A stretch of 64,000 nucleotides of DNA, taken from assembly GCF_965228795.1 (NCBI RefSeq), contig NZ_OZ245839.1, positions 1,311,908 to 1,375,907 of the forward strand, given 5' to 3'. The notes below the pieces were generated by a model. The model was given only the letters and a program-made list of their open reading frames with translations. It was not told the origin of the DNA and did no database searches. Both the position numbers and the translations under genes were made by a program. This document shows, in pieces, positions 2,779 through 33,221 of the stretch (position 1 is the stretch's first letter; each line of letters starts with the position of its first letter). The DNA is from Ekhidna sp. (GTDB lineage Bacteria > Bacteroidota > Bacteroidia > Cytophagales > Cyclobacteriaceae).

Positions 2779-2797
2779 GAGATGAACCTAAATGAAT

Positions 2798-2860
2798 GTC
2801 CATTGCGAGCGAAGCGAAGCAATCACAATTTTAAGATCACTTCACTTCGTTCGTGATGAT
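2798..2860. repeat. REP-like imperfect inverted repeat (cattgcgag...gcaatc / gat...cgtgatg type)
   Basis: 24-nt arms 2801-2824 and 2835-2858 differ by 6 transitions from perfect complementarity. Confidence 0.75.
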
Positions 2861-2879
2861 GGTCTGATTTTTTAAAAAC

Positions 2880-2968
2880 TGTCACCCTGAGCCTGCCTAC
2901 CGTCAGGCAGGTGAAACGAAGGATCTTCATTTTTCAAGAGGAGATCCTTCACTGCGTTCAGGATGACA
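2880..2968. repeat. REP-like inverted repeat (gtca.cctga...gaaggatct / agatccttc...tcaggatgac) carrying a nested 20-nt hairpin
   Basis: Arms tgtcaccctgag...gaaggatct and agatccttcactgcgttcaggatgaca; insert cctgcct-accgtc-aggcagg at 2892-2911. Confidence 0.8.
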
Positions 2969-2989
2969 CTCACTATTGAGGGGGTTGAT

Positions 2990-3319
2990 TTAAAAATCGG
3001 TAATAATCTCTCTCACCTCTGTAGTCCCCCCAAATTCAAAAATTGGGCAGTCCTTAGAAAGTTCTACCGCATGATCCATATCCTTAGCGTCCAGATGGAC
3101 ATAACCGCCCACAATTTCTTTTCCTTCTGTAAACGGCCCATCAGTTACAATTTTTCCTCCCGGACCTACCACTTTTCCTTCAGATTGTAGTGGATAACCT
3201 TCAGCTTTTACTTTGGACATCCATTCGCCCCATCGCTGCATGTGGGCCTGCATTTCTTCAGGCGACTGATCTGCATAGCCTTCATCACCACCCCGGAATA
3301 CGTACAAATACTTTTTCAT
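2990..3319 (-). CDS. YciI/DGPF family protein
   Basis: 'VTDGPFTEGKEIVGGY', 'A.EL.K.CP', 'G..EVR'. Confidence 0.9.
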   Translation of the reverse strand: MKKYLYVFRGGDEGYADQSPEEMQAHMQRWGEWMSKVKAEGYPLQSEGKVVGPGGKIVTDGPFTEGKEIVGGYVHLDAKDMDHAVELSKDCPIFEFGGTTEVREIITDF

Positions 3320-3359
3320 TGTGTTGTAGAGTTTTAGTTAAGATAAATATTTCCCTTTA

Positions 3360-3386
3360 GACGAGGAGTACCATTGAAAATGGACA
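3360..3386 (-). promoter_or_regulatory. Putative ECF42-type autoregulatory promoter, TGTCCA-N17-CGTC
   Basis: Minus strand tgtcca-ttttcaatggtactcct-cgtc, ~40 nt upstream of the DGPF gene; resembles the TGTCGA/CGTC promoter reported for ECF42. Confidence 0.55.
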
Positions 3387-3410
3387 ATGAATAATTGATA
3401 ATTTCATTTT

Positions 3411-3436
3411 CTCCTTTGGAGGGGGTTAGTGGGAGG
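3411..3436. repeat. REP-like short palindrome followed by a G-rich tail
   Basis: ctcc-ttt-ggag then ggggttagtgggagg. Confidence 0.4.
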
Positions 3437-3451
3437 ACATACATTTGCTTT

Positions 3452-4045
3452 ATGAACCTTTCAGAAGTGCTTGACATTGACCCTGAATTATTGAATTATG
3501 TGGTCATTCCTTTACTGATCTTTTTTGCCCGTATCTGCGATGTATCCATCAATACCCTCCGGATTATTTTCATGCTTCATAGCCGTAAGTATGTGGCCAC
3601 TATCCTTGGCTTTTTTGAGGCGGCTATTTGGTTGTTGGCAATTAGTCAGATTTTCCAAAATATGGGAAGTTGGCAGACATTTTTGGCCTATGCTGGTGGC
3701 TATGCCATGGGAATTTTTGTGGGAATGATGATTGAAGAGCGTTTAGCGATTGGAAATGTAGTTGTCAGAGTAATAACTGCTAAACCAGCCGATGAGCTAA
3801 TTACATTCTTCAAAGAGAAACAAATGAGATTTACAAGCCTGGAAGGGAAGTCAGGTGATGGACCGGTGAATGTGCTGTTCACAGTCATGAAACGTGAGCG
3901 ATTGCCGGTGATCATTGAAGCGATTAAAAAATATAATCCACAAGCCCTGTATACGGTGGAGGGTGTGAAAAAAGTAGGTGATGGAGAGATAGTGGATGAT
4001 CGGGGTTTTTCGAGAAGGTTGTTTAGGTTGAGAGGGAGTAGATAA
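3452..4045 (+). CDS. DUF2179 (UPF0316) family membrane protein; ATG at 3452 preferred over 3395
   Basis: 'LIFFARICDVSINTLRIIF', 'LGFFEAAIWLLAI', 'YAGGYAMGIFVGMMIEERLAIG'. Confidence 0.85.
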   Translation: MNLSEVLDIDPELLNYVVIPLLIFFARICDVSINTLRIIFMLHSRKYVATILGFFEAAIWLLAISQIFQNMGSWQTFLAYAGGYAMGIFVGMMIEERLAIGNVVVRVITAKPADELITFFKEKQMRFTSLEGKSGDGPVNVLFTVMKRERLPVIIEAIKKYNPQALYTVEGVKKVGDGEIVDDRGFSRRLFRLRGSR

Positions 4046-9953: not shown

Positions 9954-11258
9954 ATGTCATCTTTTCGGGTAGAAGGCGGTCATCGCCTCAATGGCGAAAT
10001 CATCCCTCAAGGAGCCAAAAACGAAGCACTTCAGATCATTTCCGCTGTATTGCTGACTGATCAGGAAGTCGTCATTCATAAAATTCCTCAGATCAGAGAT
10101 GTGTTAAAACTCATTGATCTCCTTGAGGATATGGGAGTGGAGGTTTCAAGGAACGGAGGTGAATCCTGCACCTTTAAAGCCGCCAATGTAAATCTTGATT
10201 TTCTAGATACAGAAGATTTTAAAGACAAAGCTTCTTCTCTTAGAGGTTCCATTATGATCCTGGGTCCGCTTCTCGCGCGTTTTGGGATAGGAAAAATGCC
10301 AAAACCCGGAGGAGATAAGATTGGGAGAAGGCGATTAGACACCCACTTTGTGGGTTTCCAGAACCTCGGAGCAAAATTCAATTACGATCCTAAAACTTCA
10401 TTTTACTCAGTAGATGGAAGGAATCTCAAAGGTGCCTACATGCTTCTGGATGAGGCTTCTGTAACAGGTACCGCCAACATCATTATGGCTGCCGTTATGG
10501 CTGAAGGATTAACAACCATTTACAATGCAGCTTGCGAACCCTACATTCAGCAATTATGCAAAATGTTGATTCGGATGGGTGCCAATATTGAGGGAGTCGG
10601 TTCAAACTTGCTAAGAATAGAAGGGGTAAAATCCCTGAACGGAACAGAGCACACATTACTGCCTGATATGATTGAAGTGGGTTCATTTATAGGTATGGCT
10701 GCCATGACCAAGTCTGACCTTACTATCAAGGATGCTCAGATCAAGGAGTTAGGGATTATACCCGATACATTCAAGCGACTGGGGATTAAAATGGAATTCA
10801 AGGGAGATGATATCCATATTCCTGCTCAGGATTCATACGAAATTGAATCTTACATTGATGGCTCCATCATGACCATTGCAGATGCCATTTGGCCGGGGTT
10901 AACACCTGATTTGCTAAGTGTAATCCTGGTAACAGCCACACAGGCAAAAGGGACGGTTTTGATTCATCAGAAAATGTTCGAAAGCCGCTTATTCTTCGTG
11001 GATAAACTCATAGATATGGGAGCACAGATTATTCTTTGTGATCCACACAGAGCTACTGTCATCGGCTTGGATAGAGCATATCCATTAAGAGGAATCACCA
11101 TGACTTCTCCGGATATTCGAGCTGGGGTTTCATTACTTATTGCAGCAATGTCTGCCGAGGGTGTGAGCACCATCCACAACATTGACCAAATTGATAGAGG
11201 CTATCAATTCATCGATGATCGATTAAACGCACTAGGCGCTAAGATCGAGCGGGTGTAG
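9954..11258 (+). CDS. murA: UDP-N-acetylglucosamine 1-carboxyvinyltransferase
   Basis: 'GAKNEAL', 'LRGSIMILGPLLAR', 'PGGDKIGRRRLDTH' (Asp-type active loop), 'SPDIRAG', 'IDRGY'. Confidence 0.98.
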   Translation: MSSFRVEGGHRLNGEIIPQGAKNEALQIISAVLLTDQEVVIHKIPQIRDVLKLIDLLEDMGVEVSRNGGESCTFKAANVNLDFLDTEDFKDKASSLRGSIMILGPLLARFGIGKMPKPGGDKIGRRRLDTHFVGFQNLGAKFNYDPKTSFYSVDGRNLKGAYMLLDEASVTGTANIIMAAVMAEGLTTIYNAACEPYIQQLCKMLIRMGANIEGVGSNLLRIEGVKSLNGTEHTLLPDMIEVGSFIGMAAMTKSDLTIKDAQIKELGIIPDTFKRLGIKMEFKGDDIHIPAQDSYEIESYIDGSIMTIADAIWPGLTPDLLSVILVTATQAKGTVLIHQKMFESRLFFVDKLIDMGAQIILCDPHRATVIGLDRAYPLRGITMTSPDIRAGVSLLIAAMSAEGVSTIHNIDQIDRGYQFIDDRLNALGAKIERV

Positions 11259-11263
11259 CTATT

Positions 11264-12532
11264 CTACCTTGTGATCGTGATTACTCCTTCATTACAACCA
11301 TCTAGCGGTAAGTACTTATATCCACCATCGGTAGTAAACTCCAGTGTGTATATTCCAGCTGGAATATCTGAAGGTGGTTTTATAATCAAGTAGGAGGAAT
11401 CAAAGTCTTCATAACCTTTATCTACAATCTCACCCTCAAAACTCAATGAAGAATCCACGAAAGTTACTTTTTCCGGACAACTGTAGCACCTATAGGTATA
11501 CAGCCAAGGAACAATATCAACTCTGATTTCTTCATCATAATTGTACGATGACTCTTCAGCGCAAAATTCTATATCAGAAATGGTAATAATATTGGAACTG
11601 TCGGGCAAAACACGTGTTTTACCATCTAATGCATAAACCTCCAATTCGTAATCGCCCGCTGGTATATTAGGAGGAATTTCAAATGCTTTAATGCTATTAT
11701 AACCATCTTCACTATTTATTGGATCATGATAGTATTGTCTGAGTTTTATACCATTTAAATATACATAAGACTCAAAACCACCTGACGAAATTTTAGAAAT
11801 AACCTGATTCCCCTGATAGATGAGCAATTCATTTTCAGGTACGTTGTTATAGCTAGGGGTGAAAATTTTATACTTGCCGTATATCATGAGACCCTCTAAC
11901 TCATAATAGGAATCATGATACTTGAGAAAGTAAGTTATTTCATCACCTAGGTCAGGTAAGTAACCGTCATAATAGAATGAAATAGTTTGATCAGAAATTT
12001 CTGTTATTTTAAATGAACCGTTTTCCGTAAGGCCTTGGTCAACCCCGTCTTCTATTCTTCTTTGCCAAATACTAAAAGCATCATCCAATTGCGGAGCGTT
12101 TTCCACATTGATCTGAATAGTATCGCTTGATCGTGTACCGGGATCAACAACGATTTCAGTGGTTGAGAGCCCTGTTATGGTAAAGGCGTTGTAATTAAAT
12201 GCATTTTCTTTTAATAGTAAGTCAAAACCGGATGATTCGTCAAATGCAATTCGCAAATCATGACTGCCACCTTCCAAAAATGGTACTGGAAATTGAAAAA
12301 CAGAATCATTTTCAGTAGTAATGTCAGATACTTCAGTTAATCCAAACTTAATGTATTTGATTTTTTGAGCCTTTGATAATCGAAGTGTCAATGTATCCCC
12401 CTCAATACCGGAATCGGGTGTTAAGGAAATAATGCTTGGGGGATCAGGTTCCGGAGTAGGCTCTGAAGAATTATCACATGTAGTGAGAAGGAAGGATATA
12501 GAAAGAAAGCCTAATAATTGTAGCTGTTTCAT
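11264..12532 (-). CDS. Lipoprotein with N-terminal IPT/TIG-like domain; start at 12532 preferred over 12559
   Basis: MKQLQLLGFLSISFLLTTC lipobox; 'P.I.SLTPDSG..GDTLTL'; repeated 'IP..IPAG.Y.LE' segments. Confidence 0.75.
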   Translation of the reverse strand: MKQLQLLGFLSISFLLTTCDNSSEPTPEPDPPSIISLTPDSGIEGDTLTLRLSKAQKIKYIKFGLTEVSDITTENDSVFQFPVPFLEGGSHDLRIAFDESSGFDLLLKENAFNYNAFTITGLSTTEIVVDPGTRSSDTIQINVENAPQLDDAFSIWQRRIEDGVDQGLTENGSFKITEISDQTISFYYDGYLPDLGDEITYFLKYHDSYYELEGLMIYGKYKIFTPSYNNVPENELLIYQGNQVISKISSGGFESYVYLNGIKLRQYYHDPINSEDGYNSIKAFEIPPNIPAGDYELEVYALDGKTRVLPDSSNIITISDIEFCAEESSYNYDEEIRVDIVPWLYTYRCYSCPEKVTFVDSSLSFEGEIVDKGYEDFDSSYLIIKPPSDIPAGIYTLEFTTDGGYKYLPLDGCNEGVITITR

Positions 12533-12633
12533 TATGTGCAACAAAAATATTTTAATCAAACGGCTGCAATGATAATGCTTTAAGAAGATGATAAAAAAGA
12601 GTTATCTAATATTCCTAAAGTTCATCTGATTTC

Positions 12634-12685
12634 TCAGTTCATCGATGATCTATTAGGCGCGTTAGGCGCTAAGATTGAGCGAGTG
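12634..12685 (+). repeat. Diverged duplicate of the murA 3' end (relic direct repeat of 11204-11255)
   Basis: 44/52 nt identical, ungapped, offset 1430 nt; reads QFIDDLLGALGAKIERV versus murA QFIDDRLNALGAKIERV. Confidence 0.85.
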
Positions 12686-12687
12686 AG

Positions 12688-13413
12688 TTAATTATCCGGC
12701 TTTAAAAAATTAGTTCTCTGGTGAGAATAGGCGTTCGGTGAGTTTACCTGAATCTTGTACCTCAAACTTGCTCTACAGTCATCCGCAATGATGTTATAGT
12801 ACATGTGTTTATGTCCATACATACCGGGGTAGAAAGTAATTGAATCAATTTCTTCTCCGATCTCGATAATATCAATGAAGCCGTTGTTGTAAAAATCCCT
12901 GACGACTAAATGGTATCCACCTTTGTAGGTATAATCCGGATTAACCCAACTGATAGTTAAGGCAGAGGTGTCTGATTGTATATTCACCAATCCTTTTTGA
13001 TCCAATTCTATTCTATCAATCTCATAGTGTCTGTCGCTTCCCGGCACTACAAGCGTTTTGTACTTGAATTTGCACATGATCATCCCTTTTCGTTTCAGCT
13101 GTTTGGTGAGTTCAAGATGGGTGCCGTACCATTCGTTGTGTCGAGTGCTTTCACTCCCGATATGATATATACCTGGTGCAAGCTTCATATGCATAGCTGA
13201 CTCTACATCCAGTGTAAGGTGACCTTTTTCAGCAATAAAAATGGTGTCAGTTTTAGAGAGGAAATCTCTTTTTTTTACCTTCTCTCCATTTTGCTTCTTT
13301 ACTTTTTTAGCTTCCAGCACTTCATATTGCCCTAGAGCTGCTACAGATATTAAGCAAAGGAGGATTGTTATGAAACGAAGGCTCATTACGTGCTGAACGA
13401 AATGGAAGATCAA
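12688..13413 (-). CDS. Hypothetical secreted protein (start may be the internal MSLRF Met)
   Basis: 241-aa ORF; signal-like ITILLCLISVAALG-Q; no family recognised. Confidence 0.7.
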   Translation of the reverse strand: MIFHFVQHVMSLRFITILLCLISVAALGQYEVLEAKKVKKQNGEKVKKRDFLSKTDTIFIAEKGHLTLDVESAMHMKLAPGIYHIGSESTRHNEWYGTHLELTKQLKRKGMIMCKFKYKTLVVPGSDRHYEIDRIELDQKGLVNIQSDTSALTISWVNPDYTYKGGYHLVVRDFYNNGFIDIIEIGEEIDSITFYPGMYGHKHMYYNIIADDCRASLRYKIQVNSPNAYSHQRTNFLKPDN

Positions 13414-13475
13414 ATAGATATGTCTAAAGGCAGGATATTTGACGATTTTTTTAATTTATTACCAGACCGCTGACC

Positions 13476-14666
13476 TTATAATTTTTCAATTATTTCCGAT
13501 GTTTTATCAATTTCTTCAAATGAGTTGAAATAGTGAGGAGACAATCGTACCGCCCACTCAATGTTCTTTTTGCTAAAATCAATAAATCCCCATTCCTTGC
13601 TGCTGATGCTATGAAAGACATTGTTTTCATTTAGCACTCGCTGGATTTCCTCCATTGACTTGTTCTTTTTCCTAAAAGTGAGAATGTTACTTTTTTGACT
13701 GCCTCTGTCATACAAGCTTACTTCATGAATGGATTGTAAATTATCTCTGAATCGCAGCATCAACTCACGATTATATGCTTCAATTTGCTCAATCCCGATT
13801 TGGTTTAAATAACGAATGGCTTCCGAAAGACCAACTAGCAATGCGTATGGTTTTTCCCAGGATTCAAATCTTTTGGCATCCGGCGTTAAAGAAAAATCAG
13901 CCTCCTTGTCCCAGATAGCTCCTGCTCCATCAATCATCAGCGGAAACAGGCCATCCCTGAGCGCTTTATTGGAAACATATAAGAGGCCGGTTCCTCTGGG
14001 TCCTCTAAGAAACTTTCGCCCGGTAGTCGCTAAAAAGTCACATTTGATCTCCCTTACATCCACAGCGATTTGGCCGGTGGACTGACAGGCATCCACTAAA
14101 AACAAGACTTCTTTTTCATTGCATATCTCACCGATTGATTTAATATCCTGAATCAGGCCGGAATTAGTCGGTACATGGGTGACAGATACGAGTTTGGGAC
14201 GATACGTGTCAATTTTCTCTCGAAAGTCATTGAGGTCCAAATCACCATTCTCATGATTCATGGTACGGATGATCTGAATTTGGTAGCGTTTGGCTAATGA
14301 GATGAATTGAATGTAATTGGAAGCATAGTCATCATCAGTGGTTAGGATTACATCCTTTGGCTTGAAATCAACGGATGATAACGCTTTTGCATATGCGTCA
14401 GTGGCGCTATTAGCAAAAGCAATGTTGTGAGATTTGCAACCTAACAAATGAGCAGCCTGCTGATAGAAATCTTCAATTTTCTGGTTCATCGTCTCTACAG
14501 CTTTGTATCCACCCTCCTTTTCTTCCAGATCTAAATACTCTTTGACTTTTTCATGTACCGATTTTGGAGGAAGCGAAGAACCTGCACTGTTAAGAAAGAT
14601 TTTGTCCCCGTAATTACCTATTTCCTGCTTTACCTGATCAGGATTCAACACTTGTTTTTTAGTCAT
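13476..14666 (-). CDS. Class V PLP-dependent aminotransferase (cysteine desulfurase-like)
   Basis: 'FLNSAGSSLP', 'LVDACQS.GQ', 'TGRKFLRGPRGTG', 'VRLSPHYFN'. Confidence 0.92.
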   Translation of the reverse strand: MTKKQVLNPDQVKQEIGNYGDKIFLNSAGSSLPPKSVHEKVKEYLDLEEKEGGYKAVETMNQKIEDFYQQAAHLLGCKSHNIAFANSATDAYAKALSSVDFKPKDVILTTDDDYASNYIQFISLAKRYQIQIIRTMNHENGDLDLNDFREKIDTYRPKLVSVTHVPTNSGLIQDIKSIGEICNEKEVLFLVDACQSTGQIAVDVREIKCDFLATTGRKFLRGPRGTGLLYVSNKALRDGLFPLMIDGAGAIWDKEADFSLTPDAKRFESWEKPYALLVGLSEAIRYLNQIGIEQIEAYNRELMLRFRDNLQSIHEVSLYDRGSQKSNILTFRKKNKSMEEIQRVLNENNVFHSISSKEWGFIDFSKKNIEWAVRLSPHYFNSFEEIDKTSEIIEKL

Positions 14667-15570
14667 AGGTAGTCCCTTGCTCTGCGATTTTATATCCTTT
14701 TTTCAAAACCTCACTTCTTTTCCGCTTATCAAAGAGCAGCGGGTTTGTGTGATTCAAATGAATAAAATGGATCTTTCTTTTTAAGTGTGTAGGTTCCTCG
14801 TCAAACAATGCCATCGTTTCTGACACAAAGGGGTGGGGCACCTCATTCATTGGCCGGTTAGGAAGCTCACCTGCATCGAAAAATGTAGCATCAAGAAAGG
14901 CATAGCTGATCATTGGATCGTTGACCATTTCCAAAATATCACGATCCCATTTATACCACTTGTCTATATCAGGGATAAATAAAAAACCTTTGTCTCCGGA
15001 TAGCACTTTGAATCCTGCAGTCTCAGAATATTCATCACGGTGTGGTACAGCAAAAACTTCAACGGAAACACCATCAGAAACGGTAATTGCTGAATCCTCA
15101 GTTAGGGTAATTGGTACAATGTTTTTTAGGTTAACCAGTTGGCTCCATGGCCCATTAGACTTGATAAAGTCACTCATTTTTGGAAGAGAATAAACTTTCA
15201 CACCTTGGGCTCCCAGCGCTTCTCTCCCTAGAAACATCAATCCTGTATAATGTCCAATATGAGCATGTGTAATAAAAATTCCTTCCGGAAGATAGGGATA
15301 ATCGCCATCGGTAAGTTCACGGAAATACTGTAGTTGCCTATCCATATCAGGAGAAGCTTCAAACAGCCACCATTTTTTACTATTTCGATCGACCAACGCA
15401 AGCGAGGTGACATATTTAGCTCTATTAACATTTTTATGAGCCTTCAGGCAGTCATTTTGACATCCGATGTGTGGGAATCCGCCATCTTGTGCTGTGCCGA
15501 GCACAACTACTTCCTGGGCCTTGCTGAAAAAACAACCAATCGATAATAGAATCGTCAATAATACCTTCAT
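14659..15570 (-). CDS. MBL-fold metallohydrolase, PqqB-like, with signal peptide
   Basis: 'VLGTAQDGGFPHIGC', 'THAHIGHYTGL', 'VPHRDEYSET', 'PDIDKW', 'HLNHTNP'. Confidence 0.88.
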   Translation of the reverse strand: MKVLLTILLSIGCFFSKAQEVVVLGTAQDGGFPHIGCQNDCLKAHKNVNRAKYVTSLALVDRNSKKWWLFEASPDMDRQLQYFRELTDGDYPYLPEGIFITHAHIGHYTGLMFLGREALGAQGVKVYSLPKMSDFIKSNGPWSQLVNLKNIVPITLTEDSAITVSDGVSVEVFAVPHRDEYSETAGFKVLSGDKGFLFIPDIDKWYKWDRDILEMVNDPMISYAFLDATFFDAGELPNRPMNEVPHPFVSETMALFDEEPTHLKRKIHFIHLNHTNPLLFDKRKRSEVLKKGYKIAEQGTTYD

Positions 15571-22499: not shown

Positions 22500-23099
22500 A
22501 TGGATGTAAAATCAGCAGAATTTGTAAAAAGTAGCCCAAAGGTGACGGACTGTCCGGACCCCACCATCCCGGAATATGCCTTTATTGGCAGGTCTAATGT
22601 AGGTAAGTCGAGTCTTATCAATCATCTGACCAATCGGAAAAAGCTTGCAAAAACTTCTTCCACGCCCGGGAAGACCCAACTGATCAACCATTTCCTGATT
22701 AATGATCAATGGTATTTGGTGGATTTACCTGGCTATGGATGGGCGCAGACAAGTAAAACCAATAAAGCTGAATGGAAGAAAATGATCCACACCTACCTGG
22801 AAGAACGTCAAAATCTTGCGTGTGTATTCTTACTTGTGGATTTGCGCCATGATCCACAAAAAATCGATCTCGATTTTATGGAGTGGTTAGGCACAGAAGG
22901 AATTCCATTCAGTATTGTATTTACGAAAGCGGACAAGCTTGGAAAAACTCAGGTTCAATCCAATGTAGCGTCTTATAAAAAAGAAATGCGAAAGACATGG
23001 GAAGAGTTGCCACCTACATTCGTAACATCCTCTGCAGAGCGAGTGGGAGGGAAAGAAATTATGGATTTTATAGAAAACATTAACGCTGCTATATTGTAG
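22500..23099 (+). CDS. yihA: Ribosome biogenesis GTPase YihA/EngB
   Basis: 'GRSNVGKSSLIN', 'S.TPGKTQ.IN', 'DLPGYG', 'TKADK'. Confidence 0.97.
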   Translation: MDVKSAEFVKSSPKVTDCPDPTIPEYAFIGRSNVGKSSLINHLTNRKKLAKTSSTPGKTQLINHFLINDQWYLVDLPGYGWAQTSKTNKAEWKKMIHTYLEERQNLACVFLLVDLRHDPQKIDLDFMEWLGTEGIPFSIVFTKADKLGKTQVQSNVASYKKEMRKTWEELPPTFVTSSAERVGGKEIMDFIENINAAIL

Positions 23100-23103
23100 C
23101 GAA

Positions 23104-24870
23104 ATGAGGATTGTCTTTCAATTAATTTTTGCTGTTAATCTCTTCTCAACCTATGCGCAGGATCCAATAGAAGAACATCTTAGCGTAATTAGGCATGCTG
23201 AAAACCCAAAGGATATTTATTACGCTTATTCAGAGATTGTAGAGTATTATTCACTTTTCTCTATTGATTCTGCAATTTTTTACTCGCAACAATTCGTTGA
23301 TTACACAGACTCTCAATCGGATGTCAATAACCAGATAATCAGTAGGTGTCTTTTGTCATCTTTTTATGAGGATGCTAGCATGTACAACATTGCATTAGAG
23401 GTTAGTCTAGAAGCAATGGATCTGATGAATGCCAGGAAAAGCAGTGTTAGCCCAAAGACAGAGGGTGCTTTATACACAGAGCTAGGTTGGATTTACGATA
23501 ATCTAGATGATCATGAGAAATCACTTAACTATTTTAGGAATTCATTAAAGATTGGAAGTATTAACAATGATTCTTCCTTGATGGGATATGGGAATTACTG
23601 CATTGGTAGTTTCTATCTTTTTTCTGAGAATCCATTATTCTACGATTCTGCCATCACTTATTTAGAAACTGCAAATCGCCTAATCCAAGAAAGTGCAGCA
23701 TCTTTTGATAGCATTATAAATATTGAAACTGAATTAGCCTATGCGTATGCATATCTTGGTCTGCTTGATCAAGCAAGGTCAGCAATCCAAACCCTTGATC
23801 AGAAGTTTGAAAAAATGGGGCCTTACCATCAAGCGTACACAGATGGTGCAAGGTATCTGGTTTTTAAGAGTGAAGGTAAATATCAACAGGCCCTTGCTGG
23901 ATTTAATCGTCTTTTAGATTTCACCATTGAGATGGGTATTGGTACAACAGAGGAGTCCGTCAATCTGACAAAAGAAATTTTGGAGTTAGCTAAAATGATG
24001 AATGATTCAGAGCTAGCTCTTGCCACTTATGAAGAGCTCAGAAAAAGAGAGAATGAATGGCTTGAAATTCAAAAGGTAAACCGAACCAATGAGCTGCAAA
24101 TTCAATATGAAACTGCACAAAAGGAGCAAGAATTAATATATCAAGCCAATCAGATTAAGCAGAAAAATGTAATTATTTACATTACCAGTATCTCATCCCT
24201 ACTCATTCTTCTCGCATTATCAGTTACGTTGATTCTATTTAAAAAAATAAAGCGTAAAAACCAGCAAATTGAAACGCTGATGCGTGAGTTGCACCATCGA
24301 GTAAAAAACAATCTTCAGGTGATATCAAGTTTATTGGGATTACAATCATCTAAGCTTAAAGATGAGTCTGCTCAGAAAGCGGTAGAGGAGGGAAAGGAGC
24401 GCATAAGAGCCATGTCTTTAATTCACCAGAAGTTGTACCAGCAGAGTGATGTATCCTCAGTAAATCTGAAAGAGTACCTGGAAACACTCGTTAAGGAGAT
24501 TGCAGACTCTTATGGATATGGTCGAAAGGTAGGATTACAACTTGAAATCCCTGAAATTCCCATGGATGTAGATACGACCATGCCCATTGGGTTAATCGTA
24601 AATGAGCTAGTCAGCAATTCGTTTAAATATGCCTATCAGGATATCGATCAACCATTTTTAAAACTATCAGTTATTGAACAACAATCGAACAGCTTTCAGC
24701 TTTCAATAAAAGACAATGGTAAAGGCCTTCCTTCAAGTTTCAATTTTGAAAAGGCTACATCCTTTGGATTGAAGCTAGTGAGGTTGCTTGTTAAGCAACT
24801 GGGAGCTAAATTAGAAATCAATCAAACAGAAGGTCTGGAATACAAAATCGAATTTCAACCGGCTCGGTAA
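23104..24870 (+). CDS. TPR-domain sensor histidine kinase (HisKA_2 type)
   Basis: Signal/TM, TPR-like periplasmic region, TM helix, 'ELHHRVKNNLQ', 'NELVSNSFKY', 'DNGKG', 'SFGLKLV'. Confidence 0.93.
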   Translation: MRIVFQLIFAVNLFSTYAQDPIEEHLSVIRHAENPKDIYYAYSEIVEYYSLFSIDSAIFYSQQFVDYTDSQSDVNNQIISRCLLSSFYEDASMYNIALEVSLEAMDLMNARKSSVSPKTEGALYTELGWIYDNLDDHEKSLNYFRNSLKIGSINNDSSLMGYGNYCIGSFYLFSENPLFYDSAITYLETANRLIQESAASFDSIINIETELAYAYAYLGLLDQARSAIQTLDQKFEKMGPYHQAYTDGARYLVFKSEGKYQQALAGFNRLLDFTIEMGIGTTEESVNLTKEILELAKMMNDSELALATYEELRKRENEWLEIQKVNRTNELQIQYETAQKEQELIYQANQIKQKNVIIYITSISSLLILLALSVTLILFKKIKRKNQQIETLMRELHHRVKNNLQVISSLLGLQSSKLKDESAQKAVEEGKERIRAMSLIHQKLYQQSDVSSVNLKEYLETLVKEIADSYGYGRKVGLQLEIPEIPMDVDTTMPIGLIVNELVSNSFKYAYQDIDQPFLKLSVIEQQSNSFQLSIKDNGKGLPSSFNFEKATSFGLKLVRLLVKQLGAKLEINQTEGLEYKIEFQPAR

Positions 24871-25605
24871 ATGTCAGATCAAAAAATAAACGTCCTCATA
24901 GTAGAAGATGAATGGATTACCTCGGAAGAGATCAAGGAGGTACTTGAGGAAAAACAAATCAATGTCACTGGTCAGGTTGATAATGCGGAAGAGGCACTTG
25001 AGATTGTTCAAAATGAAACAATAGATGTAGCTATTCTGGATATCAATATCAAAGGGGATAACGATGGAATCTGGCTGGCTAGTCAAATAAATAAGATTCG
25101 TACAACTGCCATCATTTTTCTGACTGCCTTTGAGGACGATGAGTATGTGGAGCGTGCTAAAAAAGTAGTTCCGGCAGCTTATATGGTCAAGCCATTTCAG
25201 GCAAAGAACCTCATCATTTCCGTAGAAATGGCCTTCAGCAGTTTGTTACAAGATCGAGAAAGCGAAGAACAACTTCCATCTGAGTTTATTCTGGCGGATC
25301 GCATATTCATAAAAGAAAATCAACTTTTAAAGAAAATCCTCCTTGAAGACATCCTGTATGTAGAAGCAGTAGGTAGCTATTCGAAAATTCACACAAAGAA
25401 ATCAAATCATACACTTGCAATCAATCTTAAAACCTTCAGTAGTAAGTTGAGTCATGACTCTTTTGTAAGGGTTCATCGATCGTATTTGGTCAATTCCACA
25501 CAAATTGATGCCATCAATGGCAACATCATCTATCTTCAAGAAGCTTCCATTCCAATTGGAGCCGCACAGCGCTCAGAAGTGCTCAAACGCTTACGCGTAA
25601 TTTAA
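24871..25605 (+). CDS. Response regulator, REC plus LytTR DNA-binding domain
   Basis: 'LIVEDE', 'ILDI', 'KPF'; 'DILYVEA.GSY', 'FVRVHRSYLVN'. Confidence 0.95.
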   Translation: MSDQKINVLIVEDEWITSEEIKEVLEEKQINVTGQVDNAEEALEIVQNETIDVAILDINIKGDNDGIWLASQINKIRTTAIIFLTAFEDDEYVERAKKVVPAAYMVKPFQAKNLIISVEMAFSSLLQDRESEEQLPSEFILADRIFIKENQLLKKILLEDILYVEAVGSYSKIHTKKSNHTLAINLKTFSSKLSHDSFVRVHRSYLVNSTQIDAINGNIIYLQEASIPIGAAQRSEVLKRLRVI

Positions 25606-25693
25606 AATATACCCCCAATTAGGTATTGATAATGGAGGCTTTTGTTTCCTAATTTAGGATTAAACAAAGAATCAAACTCCTTTTCAATGGATA

Positions 25694-25723
25694 AGTCACA
25701 AAAAAATATCACTAGCTCACAAA
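25694..25723 (+). promoter_or_regulatory. Putative LytTR binding site (direct repeat with 21-nt period)
   Basis: agtcacaaa (25694-25702) and gctcacaaa (25715-25723), ~85 nt upstream of the fibre gene. Confidence 0.45.
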
Positions 25724-25807
25724 GTATTTAACCATACTCGTGAAGATTGTTTTTTTGTCATCACTCAATGAAGGAATTTGAAATGATAAACTAAACTACC
25801 AAAAAAC

Positions 25808-28800
25808 ATGAAAACACTTCGCCTCCTATTTTTACTATGCTTTGTCACCATTGGAGTTTTTGCTCAAAATACCGGTGATGGTGGGAAAATGACTTTTCAA
25901 GGGTCACTATTCCAAAATGGTGAGCCAGTGAATGGCACAGTTGAATTAACCTTTAGTATACCATTACCCAATGGGGAGTGGACGGAAACCATTAGCGGTG
26001 TTTCTGTAGCTAACGGGCTTTATTCGGTAGTCTTGGGAAATACTAATCCTATACCGAACGACTTATTTATGGATGCTGCTCAGCGTTCGGTCACTGTAAC
26101 AGTTGATGGGACTTCACTCGGACAGGTAAATATCTATCCTTCGTTCGTTCCCGGGATAATAAAAGTAGATTCACTTCTATCTAATCGACTGATTATAGAA
26201 AATGATCAGGGAAACTATGTAGAGGTAACGAATAACTTTTATAGAATTAGAAACAGATCTGAAGGAGCCTCAAGTGTATATCTAACAAATGGAGGAACAT
26301 CCAGGCTTCAGCTTGCAGATTTTGACTCATTGGGAGCAACCAGAAGTTTAAGCTTCTTCACAGCCAGACCGGATGGTACTAGTAATATCACTATGGAGCG
26401 CTTCAGTGATGCTGGTGATCGAAACCTTTTACTAGAACTTTACTCCACAGATCGATTCATTGACGGAACGGTTTTAAGAGATGGATATGCTCGAGGAGGA
26501 GTTGATTTTTATAATAACCGAGGTGAACAAACAAGCTGGTTTACTTCCATGCCTGGTGACGAGAATGGAGGAGATCCGGATGGATGGTCTGCCGGAATGG
26601 GGCTGTACGGTACGAACAGCATCAATTTCATCATGGAGGGAAAGAAATGGGAGAATAACGACTTAGGATCTTTTCAGATGTATGGTGAGCACGGCAATGG
26701 CGATGGTTGGTACCACAGAAATATAGCTATGAATGTCAACTCTGACGGAACCAATAACTGGGGTCAGATTGAACTATTTAATTCAGTAGAAGGAGCAGGT
26801 GGAGAGGTCCAAACAGTAAATATTGACGGTCAGTCTGGCAACATGTATATCGCAGGTGATTTGACTGTAGACGGAGTGATCAATAGCAGTATTAACGTTG
26901 ATTTCAATTCAAGCTTATATACTCTTCAAAATCCGAATGATGGACAGCAAATTGGTGATATCATCGCCAGAGATAATGGGACTCAATTGAATCTAATGGG
27001 CTTCATAGACGGTCTTCAAAATGGTGGAGGCGTGTCGATGGGTACTAAGTGGTTCAACTTCGATCCTGCTCAAACACAACTAGGCTATTTCCATCTTAGG
27101 GGAACAGTAAATCCAGCGAATTATTTTGATGCCAATATGAAGGTCGCCATTGAGGCCACAAGAAGAGGTGATGGCGAGGAAGCAGCTAACATTTTAATGT
27201 ATGGCAATATTCTAGATGGAGATTCAAAAGCGCTTCCTGTGATGAAAATGGAAACAGTACCAAACGGTGATTACTCGGCATGGGGTGCTCAAATATCCAT
27301 GTCAAGTGTTGATGGAGCTGGAGAAAGCCAAACTGTGAATTTTAACAGTATTGATGGTTCTGGCTACTTTTCAGGAGACCTTGTTGTAGATGGAAACTTG
27401 AGTGCAAATGTTACTCCAATTGATGGGAATGAGTTCAATGTAAATTATGGAGATGGAACCAATTTCGTGAAAGCTGACCCAAACACCAGTTCCGGTCGAT
27501 TTACTGTCTTTAGTCCAGCAGGTACTCAAGCAGCCCGAATATTCAGCTCAGGAGGTAATTTCGGACGATTCAGATTGTATTCTCCAAATGGCCAAAATGA
27601 TACCCGATTAGAGTTAGGAGTTGATTCAAATGAAGGTGGATATGCACAGTTTTTGGATGCGGGTTTAAGCACCACAATAAACCTAACCGGAGCAAATGGC
27701 TCAGGCTACTTCGCTGGCGACCTAACAGTTGATGGAAACCTAAATGCTAATATCAATCCAAATTTTGACGGTATATCAGTCAACTCGGCAGGCTTGAACA
27801 TTTTCGGAGAATTCAGTCGAATGAATATCTGGAATAGTTCTGACAGTAGCTATCAAGTAGTGGAGGCCTTTGAAGAAAATAATTATGGTATTATTGATCT
27901 AAGAGATGAGAACGGAAATGTTTCAATCTCCCTACAAGGGTCGACCGGTGCTGCTTCTTATATTGCTGGTGATCTTACTGTGGATGGAAACCTAAATGCC
28001 AATATCAATCCAAATTTTGACGGTACATCAGTCAACTCTGCTGGTTTAAATATCTTCGGTGATTTTAGTCGAATGAATATCTGGAATAGTACGGATAGTA
28101 GCTATCAGGTAGTAGAAGCTTTTGAGGAAAATGATTATGGTATCGTCGATTTGAGAGATGAAGCAGGTGATGTTTCTATATCCCTTCAAGGATCAACAGG
28201 AGCTGCTTCTAATTTTACTGGAGACTTAAATGTTAACGGGAATCTTTACGGAAATAACACAAATGCAAATCAATTCTCTTTGAGCAATGGTAGAGCTAAC
28301 ATCACATCCGGAAATCAAGGAAATGGTGATTTCGGACAATTGAATTTGAATTCTACAGTTGGTGATGGTAGCAATCGAATAAGCATGGGATTTGCTGATC
28401 TTAATGAAACAGCTGGTTTTTTCAGCTTATGGAATTCAAATAATGAACTAGCTCTGATGAATGTTGTGCTTGATGGAGGAGGAAATTATGGTGCTCTATC
28501 TCTTGGAGGTCCTGGTTCTGTTACATTAAGTGGCCAGGGAAATATTGACGCCTCTGGTTATATCAGTGCTAGCGACCTATACTTTAGTGGTGCAAGTCCA
28601 GTTTCATTCAATAATGACGTAGGTATCATTTCAACTAATGAAGCGAGACTCAATACTAACGTTTTAGTTGGTGATCAAGGGGATAATGCAGTAGACATCA
28701 ATAATAATATGATCTCAATTACTGCAGGAGGCACTGGTAGTGATGATGGTACAAATACTATAAGCATCGACGGTGCAACAAGAGTCATTGATATCAATAG

Positions 28801-29473
28801 CTCAGATGCAACTTACAATGCAGTATCGATTCAGGATGCTTCCAGTGGAGGAGAAATCTTAGTAAGTGACAATACAGGTCAATTATGGGCTCATTTTCAA
28901 AGTGCTAATAGACAGTTAGTTGTATCGAATGATGGTGGAACTAATGGAGCATTTGTAACAGCTACAGGCATGTTTGGTGGTGACGGAACAGGCTCTTATA
29001 ACATTGGGTATGATGGTAATGCAACTTTCAGTGGAACTGTAACGGCAACATCCTTCCCTACTTCATCTGACAAGCGGTTCAAGGATAATATTGAGCCGCT
29101 AACGAATTCCTTATCAAATACTTTAAAAATAAGTGGTTATACATATAAGTGGAATGATGTTGCAAAAGAAGTGAAAGGAATTAGCGATGAAAAAGAGCAA
29201 ATTGGAGTTCTAGCACAAGAATTGGAAAAGGTTTATCCTCAATTAGTAAAAACTGATGCTGAAGGTTACAAGTCTGTGAATTATCCTGCTCTTACAACCG
29301 TACTCATCGAAGCAATCAAAGAACTGAATGCCGAAGTGAAAACACTGAAAGCAGAGAACGAGGAATTGAAATCAAATGCCTTGAAAACAGCCGAGCTTTC
29401 CAAACGCATCGAAACCATTGAAAAGCTCCTGGAGCTAAAGGCCGAATCTTCCACCTCAAGTGCTAAAAATTAA
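25808..29473 (+). CDS. Secreted tail-fibre-like protein with C-terminal S74 intramolecular chaperone domain
   Basis: Sec signal (VFA-Q); G/N/D-rich beta body with GDLxVxG motifs; 'SSDKRFKDNI', 'IGVLAQELEKVYP.LV', 'KSVNY..L..VLIEAIKEL' then a coiled coil. Confidence 0.9.
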   Translation: MKTLRLLFLLCFVTIGVFAQNTGDGGKMTFQGSLFQNGEPVNGTVELTFSIPLPNGEWTETISGVSVANGLYSVVLGNTNPIPNDLFMDAAQRSVTVTVDGTSLGQVNIYPSFVPGIIKVDSLLSNRLIIENDQGNYVEVTNNFYRIRNRSEGASSVYLTNGGTSRLQLADFDSLGATRSLSFFTARPDGTSNITMERFSDAGDRNLLLELYSTDRFIDGTVLRDGYARGGVDFYNNRGEQTSWFTSMPGDENGGDPDGWSAGMGLYGTNSINFIMEGKKWENNDLGSFQMYGEHGNGDGWYHRNIAMNVNSDGTNNWGQIELFNSVEGAGGEVQTVNIDGQSGNMYIAGDLTVDGVINSSINVDFNSSLYTLQNPNDGQQIGDIIARDNGTQLNLMGFIDGLQNGGGVSMGTKWFNFDPAQTQLGYFHLRGTVNPANYFDANMKVAIEATRRGDGEEAANILMYGNILDGDSKALPVMKMETVPNGDYSAWGAQISMSSVDGAGESQTVNFNSIDGSGYFSGDLVVDGNLSANVTPIDGNEFNVNYGDGTNFVKADPNTSSGRFTVFSPAGTQAARIFSSGGNFGRFRLYSPNGQNDTRLELGVDSNEGGYAQFLDAGLSTTINLTGANGSGYFAGDLTVDGNLNANINPNFDGISVNSAGLNIFGEFSRMNIWNSSDSSYQVVEAFEENNYGIIDLRDENGNVSISLQGSTGAASYIAGDLTVDGNLNANINPNFDGTSVNSAGLNIFGDFSRMNIWNSTDSSYQVVEAFEENDYGIVDLRDEAGDVSISLQGSTGAASNFTGDLNVNGNLYGNNTNANQFSLSNGRANITSGNQGNGDFGQLNLNSTVGDGSNRISMGFADLNETAGFFSLWNSNNELALMNVVLDGGGNYGALSLGGPGSVTLSGQGNIDASGYISASDLYFSGASPVSFNNDVGIISTNEARLNTNVLVGDQGDNAVDINNNMISITAGGTGSDDGTNTISIDGATRVIDINSSDATYNAVSIQDASSGGEILVSDNTGQLWAHFQSANRQLVVSNDGGTNGAFVTATGMFGGDGTGSYNIGYDGNATFSGTVTATSFPTSSDKRFKDNIEPLTNSLSNTLKISGYTYKWNDVAKEVKGISDEKEQIGVLAQELEKVYPQLVKTDAEGYKSVNYPALTTVLIEAIKELNAEVKTLKAENEELKSNALKTAELSKRIETIEKLLELKAESSTSSAKN
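27713..28216 (+). repeat. Tandem 252-nt (84-aa) intragenic duplication
   Basis: 27713-27964 versus 27965-28216; 75/84 aa identical; about 30 synonymous codon differences. Confidence 0.92.
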
Positions 29474-29484
29474 TATTCAAGATC

Positions 29485-32400: not shown

Positions 32401-33198
32401 GATGCTCCAACATTAGTAAGTGAAATAGCTCCATTAGAGTTATTGGAGGATTTTGGAACTTCCACCTTGCTGTTAGATAATAAGTTTGAAGATATCGATG
32501 GCGATGTATTGATATATACTGCGTCTTCTGATAATGAAGCGGTTGTAACTGTTTCAGTTTCAGGAAGTGAATTGATTCTAACCGAGGTTTCAAATGGTTC
32601 ATCAACCATTATAGTTTCAGCTGATGATGGGAATGGAGGAAATGTGGAAACCTCATTTGCTGTGACTGTAAATAATGTAAATGATGCACCGGTGGCGGTA
32701 TCTGGAATTGTGGATCAAGAGATCAAGAAGGGTTTTAGTAATTCTACCATTGATTTAGCCAATGCTTTTGAGGATGAGGATGGCGATCAGATACGTTTGT
32801 CTGCCGCTTCATCAAATGTGGAAGTAGTAGCCGTAACAGTTAGCGGAACCACGCTTTCCATCCTGGAAAGAGGCGAAGGAGTCGCTACAATCACTGTTAC
32901 AGGTTCCGATGGAAATGGCGGAGAGGCTTCATTCGAATTTGATTTCACTGTAATTCCTTTGGGCGTCAATGCTGTTGAGGACTATCACATTTATCCTAAT
33001 CCTGTTTCTAAGCAGTTGTACATCAAAGGGACTTTTAGCGAAGTAGGATGGAGAATGATTGATACTTCCGGAAGGATTATTAAATCGGATCGTTTATCTA
33101 ATGGAGAAGCGATAGATGTTTCAAATATGAATACAGGAATTTATTACTTAAGGATTGATGGGACGAATCAAACCCTGAAGGTGATCATTCGCAGATAA
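29485..33198 (+). CDS. Large T9SS-secreted protein with ~10 cadherin-like/tandem-95 repeats and a type A CTD
   Basis: Signal peptide; recurring 'VND.P...' and 'D.DGD.L' motifs; C-terminal 'IYPNPVSKQLYI...G.Y.L......KVII'. Confidence 0.92.
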   Translation: MKTIMNKLIATCILSLLVGALCAQDTLSRSNVSNGGAWLTKSSYTLFGTFGQPGVATNITSEDGVLSGSVGFIGPVNNIGQNNPPVASTTSLTVFVEDSIIELSGFDPDGDEIFFEIVAEPQFGTLTQVQGGQFEFLPNAGLNPGQLYTDELTFRVNDGSLNSEDAVFNFQFIMEDAPHEITGVTFDGTNMSLSWEDVVPNDSYAVELDYYDLSDATNPGFKFLINQSFNAADLIPENGLYSVSTAVSATEHPYVFDGDQVFITASVTTPNGVGAFEAIVLDNTTGARTTASSDGEFFAFGSSQTVRENGKVELSFYSVELSDFDAATTIIELLDEGSKGNISDLTVKESTDVLKEWSVTYESTQQVGGKDSIEFRVFNQDRQLFDTAYVRIDIIDVNDPPKLARIANQVTEEDVPLQVNITPTDPDNEVSVIVESNEATLAPATYENGVITVSPQNNFSGRVSVNVIVEEVDTDENYVAYRKFDVEVLDVDDSPVVNAIPNTTIDEDNTLTFIASATDVDATLAVFTYSAEVNDPSAIDVEVDGSTIQLIPKPNVNGTYTVSVFADDGLGKPTSVSEAEVFELVINPINDEPEILKSFSTQQIITGLPDYTINLGAYFTDVENGSDLTYTFAGNSEIGLSISNTILTVSPSESFNSIEEVTVTASDGENEVSQTVSFVYIQSDPNVVIVNAVADFTLEEDFGTSTLDVSNVFANTNDPNAVFEFNLTGGGFTSASINEEGLITFESDENFNGTETFYLFGSVDGQANYTSFTLEVTPVNDPPVVSQVSAKEMIEDQILSGVFLSVADVDNSLSELTITASSSDTNIIDNVGITNNILSSGFSFSFTPIANANGSTTIEISISDGGDPEVVSFDLNVLPVNDAPFIKSASIGPATEDVSYSLNMTELFGDVDGDALSFSSTEKPEWLTQTGNILSGTPANSDVGVEPLKIRVDDSKGGTVVQMYDIEVLNVNDAPTLVSEIAPLELLEDFGTSTLLLDNKFEDIDGDVLIYTASSDNEAVVTVSVSGSELILTEVSNGSSTIIVSADDGNGGNVETSFAVTVNNVNDAPVAVSGIVDQEIKKGFSNSTIDLANAFEDEDGDQIRLSAASSNVEVVAVTVSGTTLSILERGEGVATITVTGSDGNGGEASFEFDFTVIPLGVNAVEDYHIYPNPVSKQLYIKGTFSEVGWRMIDTSGRIIKSDRLSNGEAIDVSNMNTGIYYLRIDGTNQTLKVIIRR

Positions 33199-33221
33199 TT
33201 AAGATAAGCAATACTAAGGTG

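What the first reader, a model, noticed from the sequence alone, without database searches (positions are those of the whole stretch)
11204..12690. Lipoprotein gene bracketed by a duplicated murA 3' end: an integrase-less insertion scar
Seen: 11204-11255 (last 17 codons of murA) recurs at 12634-12685 with 44/52 identity, ungapped. The copy still reads QFIDDLLGALGAKIERV-S-stop; five changed codons are synonymous and two are not. Both copies contain the palindrome CATCGATG. The 1.43 kb between them carries only an AT-rich IPT/TIG-type lipoprotein gene on the opposite strand. Inference: DNA carrying its own murA tail recombined in and replaced the gene end (attL/attR-like). The mainly synonymous divergence suggests the two tails came from different lineages' functional murA alleles rather than from neutral decay. 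The murA 3' end may be a cassette-exchange hotspot.
Basis: partly seen in the sequence, partly recalled or inferred. Interest (0 to 1): 0.7.

Follow-up and report, generated by a model that had tools for sequence, protein, structure and literature searches.

The report
Displaced murA end beside inserted gene
A single orphan lipoprotein gene was inserted just after the essential cell-wall gene murA in one Ekhidna genome, pushing the gene's original last 52 bases downstream, where they survive as a decaying relic; this is a clean but ordinary scar of recombination, not a mobile element with its own integrase.

Summary
The repeat is real: 11204-11255 and 12634-12685 match 44/52 ungapped, with only these two copies in the 4.39 Mb genome. 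The downstream copy is the displaced ancestral murA end. It keeps the genus-typical ...IERV-S-stop. Its stop overlaps the stop of the 232-aa gene with the same 2-nt geometry seen in 7 of 8 relatives tested where murA abuts that gene. It also carries R>L and N>G changes at genus-invariant residues.

The 1.38 kb between the copies holds one Ig-like-fold lipoprotein gene. That gene is absent from 40 of 41 congeners; the one homolog (33% identity) lies at another locus.

No integrase lies within 84 kb. No inverted-repeat termini or second copy of the insert were found. No second murA tail occurs in 40 congeners or 80 other Bacteroidota loci.

Best model: homology-driven "C-terminal displacement", either one-sided homologous plus illegitimate recombination or single crossover of a circle, not att-site integration.

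The claim that the tails come from different lineages is not supported. At third positions they are each other's closest relatives, and the divergence fits one constrained copy and one neutral copy.

The slot after murA is hypervariable (8 gene arrangements in 19 genomes). A murA 3' patch was also exchanged with a sister-group species.

This is a new member of a known kind, of modest interest.

The parts
9954..11258 (+). murA (UDP-N-acetylglucosamine 1-carboxyvinyltransferase), 434 aa, ends ...KIERV-TAG. It is one residue shorter than in nearly all congeners.
   Evidence: Pfam EPSP_synthase, E 7e-62. It is 84-96% aa identical to congeners. C-termini are compared.
10824..11255 (+). murA 3' patch that is 91% identical to species G006, against 79% for the 5' part and <=81% to 39 other congeners. 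It is most parsimoniously a patch passed from this lineage to G006.
   Evidence: Max chi-square 32 at nt 871, permutation p<1/2000. It is the top signal among 210 species pairs. The sister species G438 shows deep third-position divergence from G006 only in this patch.
11204..11255 (+). Copy 1 of the repeat: the in-use last 17 codons of murA, followed directly by TAG (11256-11258).
11256..12633 (.). Lineage-specific DNA (1378 nt): murA stop, a 5-nt spacer, the lipoprotein gene and its 101-nt upstream region. It is single-copy in the genome.
   Evidence: It is absent from all congeners at this site. There is no paralogous copy in the genome. GC dips to 0.34-0.38.
11264..12532 (-). Orphan lipoprotein gene. 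It is 422 aa from ATG 12532; the mechanical ORF runs to TTG 12559 (431 aa). The signal peptide ends in the lipobox LLTTC. The fold is multi-Ig-like.
   Evidence: Only 3 distant homologs (36-38% identity) among 5.8e9 proteins, none next to murA. One 33% homolog occurs in congener G441 at another locus. 110 columns are invariant in the 4-sequence alignment.
12533..12633 (-). Upstream region of the lipoprotein gene. It carries TATTTTTG (fits the Bacteroidetes -7 motif TAnnTTTG, recalled from general knowledge) about 10 nt before the ATG. Its right edge (12633|12634) is the novel joint to the relic.
   Evidence: Sequence. It shows no similarity to murA upstream of the repeat (30/101 identical, chance level).
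12634..12691 (+). Copy 2: the relic of the ancestral murA 3' end (17 codons, then the Ser codon AGT and TAA), now non-coding and decaying.
   Evidence: It keeps the genus-typical V-X-stop end. Its stop overlaps the stop of the next gene at offset -1, exactly as in 7 of 8 empty sites. R>L and N>G hit residues invariant in the genus.
12688..13386 (-). Conserved 232-aa secreted protein of unknown function ('p241'), convergent with murA. It is the ancestral neighbour of murA.
   Evidence: There are 35 homologs, nearly all from Ekhidna, the best at 79%. It abuts murA in many congeners.

Best explanation
The structure is the scar of a homology-driven 'C-terminal displacement'.

Shown steps. In an ancestor of this Ekhidna lineage, murA and the convergent 232-aa gene abutted with overlapping stop codons. 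Any gene landing between them would therefore destroy an essential gene end unless a replacement end came with it. The resident last 52 nt plus Ser-TAA were pushed 1.43 kb downstream. They remain attached to the 232-aa gene, free of selection, and have since accumulated about 0.1 substitutions per site.

Inferred steps. DNA from a closely related donor carried a murA 3' end (ending V-TAG), immediately followed by the convergent lipoprotein gene with its own promoter. It recombined into the resident murA using murA homology on the left. The right end joined illegitimately at resident murA nt 1250. This would be homology-facilitated illegitimate recombination, or equivalently a single crossover of a small circle carrying a short piece of the murA tail. 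No integrase or att site is involved, and the event is not recurrent.
For: - Empty sites with identical stop-overlap geometry occur in 7 of 8 relatives tested.
- Joining the flanks restores a 435-aa murA ending VS*, like the congeners.
- The relic carries non-synonymous changes at invariant residues, while the in-use copy does not.
- The cargo is absent from this site in 41 congeners, is an orphan in 5.8e9 proteins, and is single-copy in the genome.
- The murA stop and the lipoprotein stop are only 5 nt apart. Tight or overlapping convergent junctions are also native in relatives' slots.
- The in-use tail lacks the terminal Ser codon that the relic and most congeners keep.
- No tyrosine recombinase lies within 84 kb.
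- The same slot holds 8 different gene arrangements in 19 congeners. A murA 3' patch has crossed between lineages, so recombination with crossovers inside murA does occur here.
- The mechanism has precedents: Rhs C-terminal displacement (PMC2935791), T6SS effector-immunity displacement attributed to HFIR (PMC5361080), and HFIR itself defined in PMC3240628.
Against: - The donor arrangement (murA followed by the lipoprotein gene) was not found anywhere, so the donor origin of copy 1 is inferred, not shown.
- The mosaic murA patch first looked like the homologous anchor of this event. It is more parsimoniously a transfer into G006, so there is no direct trace of an anchor tract.
- Microhomology at the right joint cannot be assessed without the donor.
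- The two tails are each other's closest relatives. That fits a simple local duplication equally well.
- HFIR is documented experimentally mainly in naturally competent species (PMC3240628). Competence in Ekhidna is unknown to me.
Confidence: 0.58

Rival explanations
1. Purely illegitimate insertion of foreign DNA into the murA end, accompanied by a local 52-bp target duplication (for example fill-in of a staggered break or template switching). Both tails then derive from the resident gene, and the foreign DNA happened to supply an immediate TAG.
For: The two copies are each other's nearest relatives at third positions (4/18 differences against 6 to G006 and 8-14 to most others). The divergence pattern fits identical copies at the time of the event: first and second positions 3/35, third positions 5/17. 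No donor with a murA-lipoprotein junction was found.
Against: No known bacterial process gives 52-bp target duplications. The insert has no terminal inverted repeats, no transposase and no other copies. The model needs a chance in-frame stop directly at the joint and a chance 5-nt convergent junction. From general knowledge, integration without homology is orders of magnitude rarer than homology-anchored integration.
Confidence: 0.2
2. Remnant of a site-specific integrative element (phage 21/e14-at-icd type) that carried its own murA 3' end as part of attP. Its integrase and other genes were later deleted, or the cassette is mobilised in trans.
For: The geometry is that of attL/attR around an element that restores the target gene's end. 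The copies share identical runs of 13 and 14 nt that could hold a core.
Against: No recombinase gene lies in the insert or within 84 kb. No second murA tail occurs anywhere in 40 congeners or within 3 kb in 80 other Bacteroidota murA loci. The CATCGATG palindrome is not conserved. The cargo is one gene packed 5 nt from murA, leaving no room for element ends. This model also needs an extra deletion step.
Confidence: 0.12
3. The in-use tail came from a distinct lineage (G006-like donor), together with the 431-nt murA 3' patch and the lipoprotein gene, in a single event. The relic would then be the deeply diverged native tail.
For: A murA 3' patch of 431 nt directly adjoining the insert is 91% identical to G006, against a 76-79% background.
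Against: G006's sister G438 shares its flanks (third-position divergence 0.27-0.35) but is at the deep level (0.556) from G006 in this patch. That equals its distance to this genome (0.549). One transfer into G006 therefore explains everything. The relic differs from copy 1 at only 8/52 sites, 3 of which are post-event decay. Only 4-8% of 52-nt windows at the deep divergence level have <=5-7 differences.
Confidence: 0.08
4. Chance similarity or an assembly artefact.
For: None. Reads could not be examined.
Against: P is about 1e-11. The copy is in frame, carries the ancestral Ser-stop and has the ancestral junction to the next gene. The copies are 85% identical, so this is not a collapsed or duplicated repeat. 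The genome is closed and 99.5% complete.
Confidence: 0.01

Closest known systems
C-terminal displacement at rhs loci (Jackson et al. 2009, PMC2935791) and T6SS effector-immunity arrays in Vibrio cholerae (Kirchberger et al. 2017, PMC5361080)
   Same: An incoming module brings a replacement 3' end for a conserved resident gene. The resident 3' end is pushed downstream and kept as an orphan fragment. No integrase is involved. The mechanism proposed there is homologous recombination with a circular intermediate, or homology-facilitated illegitimate recombination.
   Different: Here the resident gene is an essential housekeeping enzyme (murA), not a polymorphic toxin. The replaced end is functionally identical rather than a new toxin tip. 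The displaced piece is only 58 nt. There is a single event, not an array, and the cargo is a lipoprotein gene on the opposite strand.
Homology-facilitated illegitimate recombination (HFIR), as defined experimentally in Streptococcus pneumoniae, Acinetobacter baylyi, Pseudomonas stutzeri and E. coli (summarised in PMC3240628)
   Same: There is one homologous end and one illegitimate end. Foreign DNA is captured next to a conserved gene without mobile-element machinery.
   Different: Experimental HFIR usually deletes recipient DNA. Here the illegitimate joint lies upstream of the end of homology, so 52 nt are duplicated instead. The donor, the anchor tract and any joint microhomology are not observable here.
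Phage 21 / e14 integration into the 3' end of icd in E. coli (recalled from general knowledge; the original papers were not retrieved)
   Same: The inserted DNA carries an alternative 3' end of a housekeeping gene, so the gene stays intact, and the old end persists at the other junction with mostly synonymous differences.
   Different: Those are prophages with an integrase and a defined att core, found recurrently at the site. Here there is no integrase, one cargo gene and no recurrence.

Membership tests
Site-specific integrative element using a gene 3' end as att site | Tyrosine or serine recombinase encoded in or beside the element | tested here: not met
   The only ORF in the insert is the lipoprotein gene. 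The nearest PF00589 hit is about 84 kb away. Serine recombinases were not searched genome-wide.
Site-specific integrative element using a gene 3' end as att site | The same site is occupied recurrently, with duplicated target ends, in related genomes | tested here: not met
   There is no second murA tail in 40 congeners genome-wide, in 21 loci with 8 kb downstream, or in 80 other Bacteroidota loci.
Site-specific integrative element using a gene 3' end as att site | Identical core sequence shared by attL and attR | tested here: inconclusive
   Identical runs of 13 and 14 nt exist, but both are explained by coding constraint. The CATCGATG palindrome is not conserved in the genus.
Site-specific integrative element using a gene 3' end as att site | Excision to a circular form | not testable with these tools
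   This needs PCR or reads.
Homology-driven gene-end displacement (HFIR / rhs-type C-terminal displacement) | The resident 3' end is retained downstream of the insert in its ancestral context | tested here: met
   The relic keeps VS-stop and the -1 offset stop overlap with the next gene, as in 7 of 8 empty sites.
Homology-driven gene-end displacement (HFIR / rhs-type C-terminal displacement) | The insert is absent from relatives, and empty sites are colinear with the joined flanks | tested here: met
   The joined flanks give a 435-aa murA.
Homology-driven gene-end displacement (HFIR / rhs-type C-terminal displacement) | A donor-derived tract is detectable in the homologous anchor | tested here: inconclusive
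   A 431-nt mosaic patch adjoins the insert. Comparison with G438 makes G006 the likelier recipient. If the donor was near-identical, the anchor would be invisible.
Homology-driven gene-end displacement (HFIR / rhs-type C-terminal displacement) | Microhomology at the illegitimate joint | not testable with these tools
   The donor sequence beyond 12633 is unknown. No donor was found.
Transposon / insertion sequence | Terminal inverted repeats, a transposase, multiple copies and a short target duplication | tested here: not met
   No inverted repeats at the insert ends. No transposase ORF. The insert is single-copy. The duplication is 52 nt.
IPT/TIG-domain lipoprotein (the cargo) | Match to the Pfam TIG/IPT model | tested here: not met
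   Only a sub-threshold DUF4625 hit appeared (E 7.8e-4, 20.2 bits against a cut-off of 27).
IPT/TIG-domain lipoprotein (the cargo) | Tandem Ig-like beta-sandwich fold behind a lipoprotein signal peptide | tested here: met
   The AF2 model is all-beta with mean pLDDT 67.6. Foldseek top hits are plexin IPT ectodomains and B. ovatus SGBP-B, at low TM-scores as expected for a flexible multi-domain chain. The lipobox LLTTC is visible in the sequence.

The most novel reading that the evidence does not exclude
The 1.43 kb unit is an integrase-less gene cassette whose attachment site is the last 52 nt of murA. A recombinase encoded elsewhere would mobilise it in trans as a small circle. The hypervariable slot after murA in Ekhidna (8 arrangements in 19 genomes) would then be a cassette-exchange site of a previously undescribed kind.
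Probability: 0.06. Interest if true: 0.65.

Novelty: new member of a known kind. Interest (0 to 1): 0.3.

Why it matters
This is a clean natural example of how a foreign gene can be wedged between two convergent genes with overlapping stops, one of them essential, without damaging either. The insert brings a spare gene end, and the old end is left behind.

It shows that duplicated gene ends around an insert should not automatically be read as att sites. A scar made by homologous plus illegitimate recombination looks the same.

The relic also gives an internal clock: about 0.1 substitutions per site since insertion. The locus illustrates a small, hypervariable accessory slot beside a core gene in a marine Cytophagales genus.

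None of this changes current understanding. Its value is as a well-documented case and as a caution for annotation.

Tried and rejected
1. Mosaic patch as the anchor. I first took the mosaic murA 3' patch (91% to G006) to be the homologous anchor of a single HFIR event from a G006-like donor. I rejected this as the leading version. G006's sister G438 shares both of G006's flanks and the DinB-HxlR slot, yet it is at deep divergence from G006 in just this patch. The relic is also too similar to copy 1 for a deeply diverged native tail.

2. Search for the donor. Protein search (3 distant homologs, none beside murA), 400 genomes of the order, 42 genomes of the genus and an exact-pattern scan of metagenome contigs for the relic junction all failed to find one.

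3. Search for a closer relative with an undecayed native tail, via homologs of the 232-aa gene. The best is only 79% identical, and its murA tail is no closer.

4. A relic between HxlR and the 232-aa gene in G441, where DinB-HxlR sits in the same slot: none found.

5. Extension of the relic upstream of 12634: chance-level identity, 30/101.

6. Terminator or promoter function of the relic: no terminator-like site, and promoter-like hits at chance level.

7. Tandem duplication followed by deletion: rejected because it needs a second lipoprotein copy, and none exists.

9. de Vries & Wackernagel 2002 (PMC122324) is not held. The icd/e14 papers were not retrieved.
Full report
OBSERVATION

The window lies in a closed 4.39 Mb genome (G000:C1:1311908-1375907). 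The genus is Ekhidna (Cytophagales), judged from source names on homologs of the neighbouring gene and from a same-genus MAG labelled Roseivirgaceae.

murA (9954-11258, +; Pfam EPSP_synthase, E 7e-62) ends ...QFIDDRLNALGAKIERV-TAG. Its last 52 nt (11204-11255) recur at 12634-12685 with 44/52 identity, ungapped. This is far beyond chance, at about 1e-11 after correction. These are the only two copies in the genome.

Copy 2 reads QFIDDLLGALGAKIERVS-TAA.

Between the copies lie:
- the murA stop and a 5-nt spacer;
- one minus-strand gene (11264-12532, 422 aa from the ATG);
- 101 nt of its upstream region.

WHAT EACH PIECE IS

The cargo has a signal peptide ending in the lipobox LLTTC. It has no Pfam family above threshold. 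An AlphaFold model (mean pLDDT 67.6) is an all-beta string of Ig-like domains. Its best structural matches are plexin IPT ectodomains and Bacteroides SGBP-B surface lipoproteins.

The gene is an orphan.
- Only three homologs at 36-38% identity exist among 5.8e9 proteins, and none is beside murA.
- None was found in 400 genomes of the order.
- One 33% homolog occurs in congener G441, 1.4 Mb from its murA.
- The alignment has 110 invariant columns, so it is a real gene.
- The 1375-nt insert is single-copy in the genome.

The gene to the right (12688-13386, -, 232 aa, unknown function) is a conserved Ekhidna gene.

WHICH COPY IS THE ORIGINAL

Nearly all congeners end murA with ...IER(V/I)-X-stop, one residue longer than the in-use murA here. 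Copy 2 keeps that extra codon (Ser) and its stop.

In ten other records murA abuts the 232-aa gene directly. These are G012, G016, G008, G023, G437, G428, G440, G430, a 3.9 Mb Ekhidna genome and a 1-kb contig. In 7 of the 8 tested, the two convergent stop codons overlap at offset -1. That is exactly the geometry of the relic and the 232-aa gene in the window.

Joining 9954-11203 to 12634-12691 in silico gives an uninterrupted 435-aa murA ending VS*.

Copy 2 carries R>L and N>G at residues invariant across the genus, while copy 1 carries none.

Copy 2 is therefore the displaced ancestral murA end, now decaying. Copy 1 is the end that came with, or was made by, the insertion.

IS IT A MOBILE ELEMENT?

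The evidence says no.
- No recombinase lies in the insert, and no PF00589 hit lies within 84 kb.
- There are no inverted-repeat ends and no second copy of the insert.
- No second murA tail occurs anywhere in 40 congeners, in 8 kb downstream of murA in 21 of them, or within 3 kb in 80 other Bacteroidota.
- The CATCGATG palindrome merely encodes F-I-D-D and is not conserved.

THE SLOT

Gene content between murA and a conserved metallo-beta-lactamase-fold gene is hypervariable. There are eight arrangements in 19 genomes:
- lipoprotein, relic, 232-aa gene and aminotransferase (this genome only);
- DinB, HxlR and aminotransferase (G006, G438);
- DinB, HxlR and the 232-aa gene (G441);
- a BLUF gene (G024, G013, G019);
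- the 232-aa gene alone (G012, G008, G023, G437, G430);
- the 232-aa gene and aminotransferase (G016, G428, G440);
- aminotransferase alone (G436);
- nothing (G022, G010).

All of these genes are convergent with murA and packed against, or overlapping, its stop. None of the other arrangements has a relic, including G441.

THE MOSAIC murA

murA nt 871-1302 is 8.6% divergent from G006, against 21.1% for nt 1-870. The maximum chi-square is 32 with permutation p<1/2000, and third-position divergence is 25% against 52%.

The background over 41 kb of synteny is 75.8% identity, and this patch is the maximum at 91.2%. No other species exceeds 81% in the patch or 80% in the 5' part. It is the strongest signal among 210 species pairs.

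I first read this as the homologous anchor of the insertion event. G438 changes that reading. It is G006's sister: its flanks have third-position divergence of 0.27-0.35, and it shares the DinB-HxlR slot at 89-94% aa identity. Yet in this patch G438 is at 0.556 from G006, equal to its 0.549 from this genome.

One transfer of a patch from this lineage into G006 explains all three numbers. The opposite direction needs an extra event.

The tails point the same way.
- At 18 third positions copy 1 and copy 2 differ at 4 sites, and each differs from G006 at 6.
- Most other species differ at 8-14.
- Only 4-8% of 52-nt windows at the deep divergence level have as few as 5-7 differences.

The two tails therefore appear to come from the same gene pool. 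The 5 synonymous plus 3 non-synonymous nucleotide changes fit one constrained and one neutral copy since an event about 0.1 substitutions per site ago. With only 52 nt it is also not excluded.

MECHANISM

Shown:
- there was an insertion into an ancestral murA / 232-aa-gene junction;
- the resident tail was displaced and is decaying;
- no element machinery is present.

Inferred: the incoming DNA carried a murA 3' end natively followed by the lipoprotein gene. Two points suggest this. The 5-nt convergent junction resembles the tight or overlapping native junctions in relatives' slots. The in-use tail ends V-TAG rather than VS-TAA.

On this model the DNA recombined through murA homology, with an illegitimate right joint at resident nt 1250. 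That is HFIR as defined in PMC3240628. A single crossover of a small circle, as proposed for rhs tips (PMC2935791), would give the same product. The same logic was invoked for T6SS effector-immunity displacement (PMC5361080).

My confidences:
- homology-driven displacement: about 0.58;
- purely illegitimate insertion with a 52-bp local duplication: about 0.2;
- degraded or trans-mobilised site-specific element: about 0.12;
- single event from a G006-like donor: about 0.08;
- artefact or chance: about 0.01.

NOVELTY AND VERDICT

The att-like, different-lineage and hotspot parts are not, or only weakly.

The phenomenon belongs to a known kind: gene-end displacement by homology-driven capture. 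It is seen here at an essential housekeeping gene with a non-toxin cargo. Interest is modest, at 0.3.

LIMITS

No donor or near-conspecific genome exists in the searched collections.

Noticed in passing
window 10824-11255, against G006:C31:132812-133242 (L002/L033): A 431-nt inter-species recombination patch in the murA 3' part. It is 91% identical to G006, against a 76-79% background. G006's sister G438 is at deep divergence from G006 only in this patch, so the transfer most likely went from this lineage into G006.
   Followed up: yes
window 11259-15570 and the equivalent regions of L033-L042, L160-L173: The slot between murA and the metallo-beta-lactamase-fold gene has 8 different gene arrangements in 19 Ekhidna genomes (lipoprotein; DinB+HxlR; BLUF; 232-aa gene; class-V aminotransferase; combinations; empty). 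All genes are convergent with murA and abut or overlap its stop.
   Followed up: partly
L158:3687-4520 (-) = L159:10687-11520; ENA ERZ25074695 contig ctg334457_2x_l: A 277-aa ORF fuses an Ada/AraC-type HTH N-terminal part in frame to the last ~125 codons of murA (ending ...IERVS*). It sits directly beside the 232-aa gene, with no full murA within 9 kb. The murA part shows no amino-acid decay despite ~21% nt divergence. It is either a very recent second case of a displaced murA 3' end or a chimeric 2x-coverage assembly.
   Followed up: partly
L172 (G441:C1, murA locus) 2808-3756: In congener G441 the DinB-HxlR pair sits between murA and the 232-aa gene, the same position as the lipoprotein gene here, but without any murA-tail relic. 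Cargo can therefore enter or leave this slot without leaving a scar.
   Followed up: yes
L033 (G006) 2786-3367 and L160 (G438) 2789-3358: The DinB-family gene overlaps the last 14-22 nt of murA on the opposite strand. The murA tail sequence there is thus constrained by two reading frames.
   Followed up: no
window 12541-12550 (minus strand): TATTTTTG, which fits the Bacteroidetes -7 promoter motif TAnnTTTG (recalled from general knowledge), lies about 10 nt upstream of the lipoprotein ATG. This suggests a very short or absent 5' leader.
   Followed up: no
window 23075-33292, against G006: About 10 kb of the window has no counterpart in the syntenic G006 region. The alignment jumps from window 23074 to 33293 while G006 positions are nearly contiguous. 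This coincides with the surface-fibre / T9SS gene cluster flagged by another first-stage note, so that cluster is also lineage-specific relative to G006.
   Followed up: no
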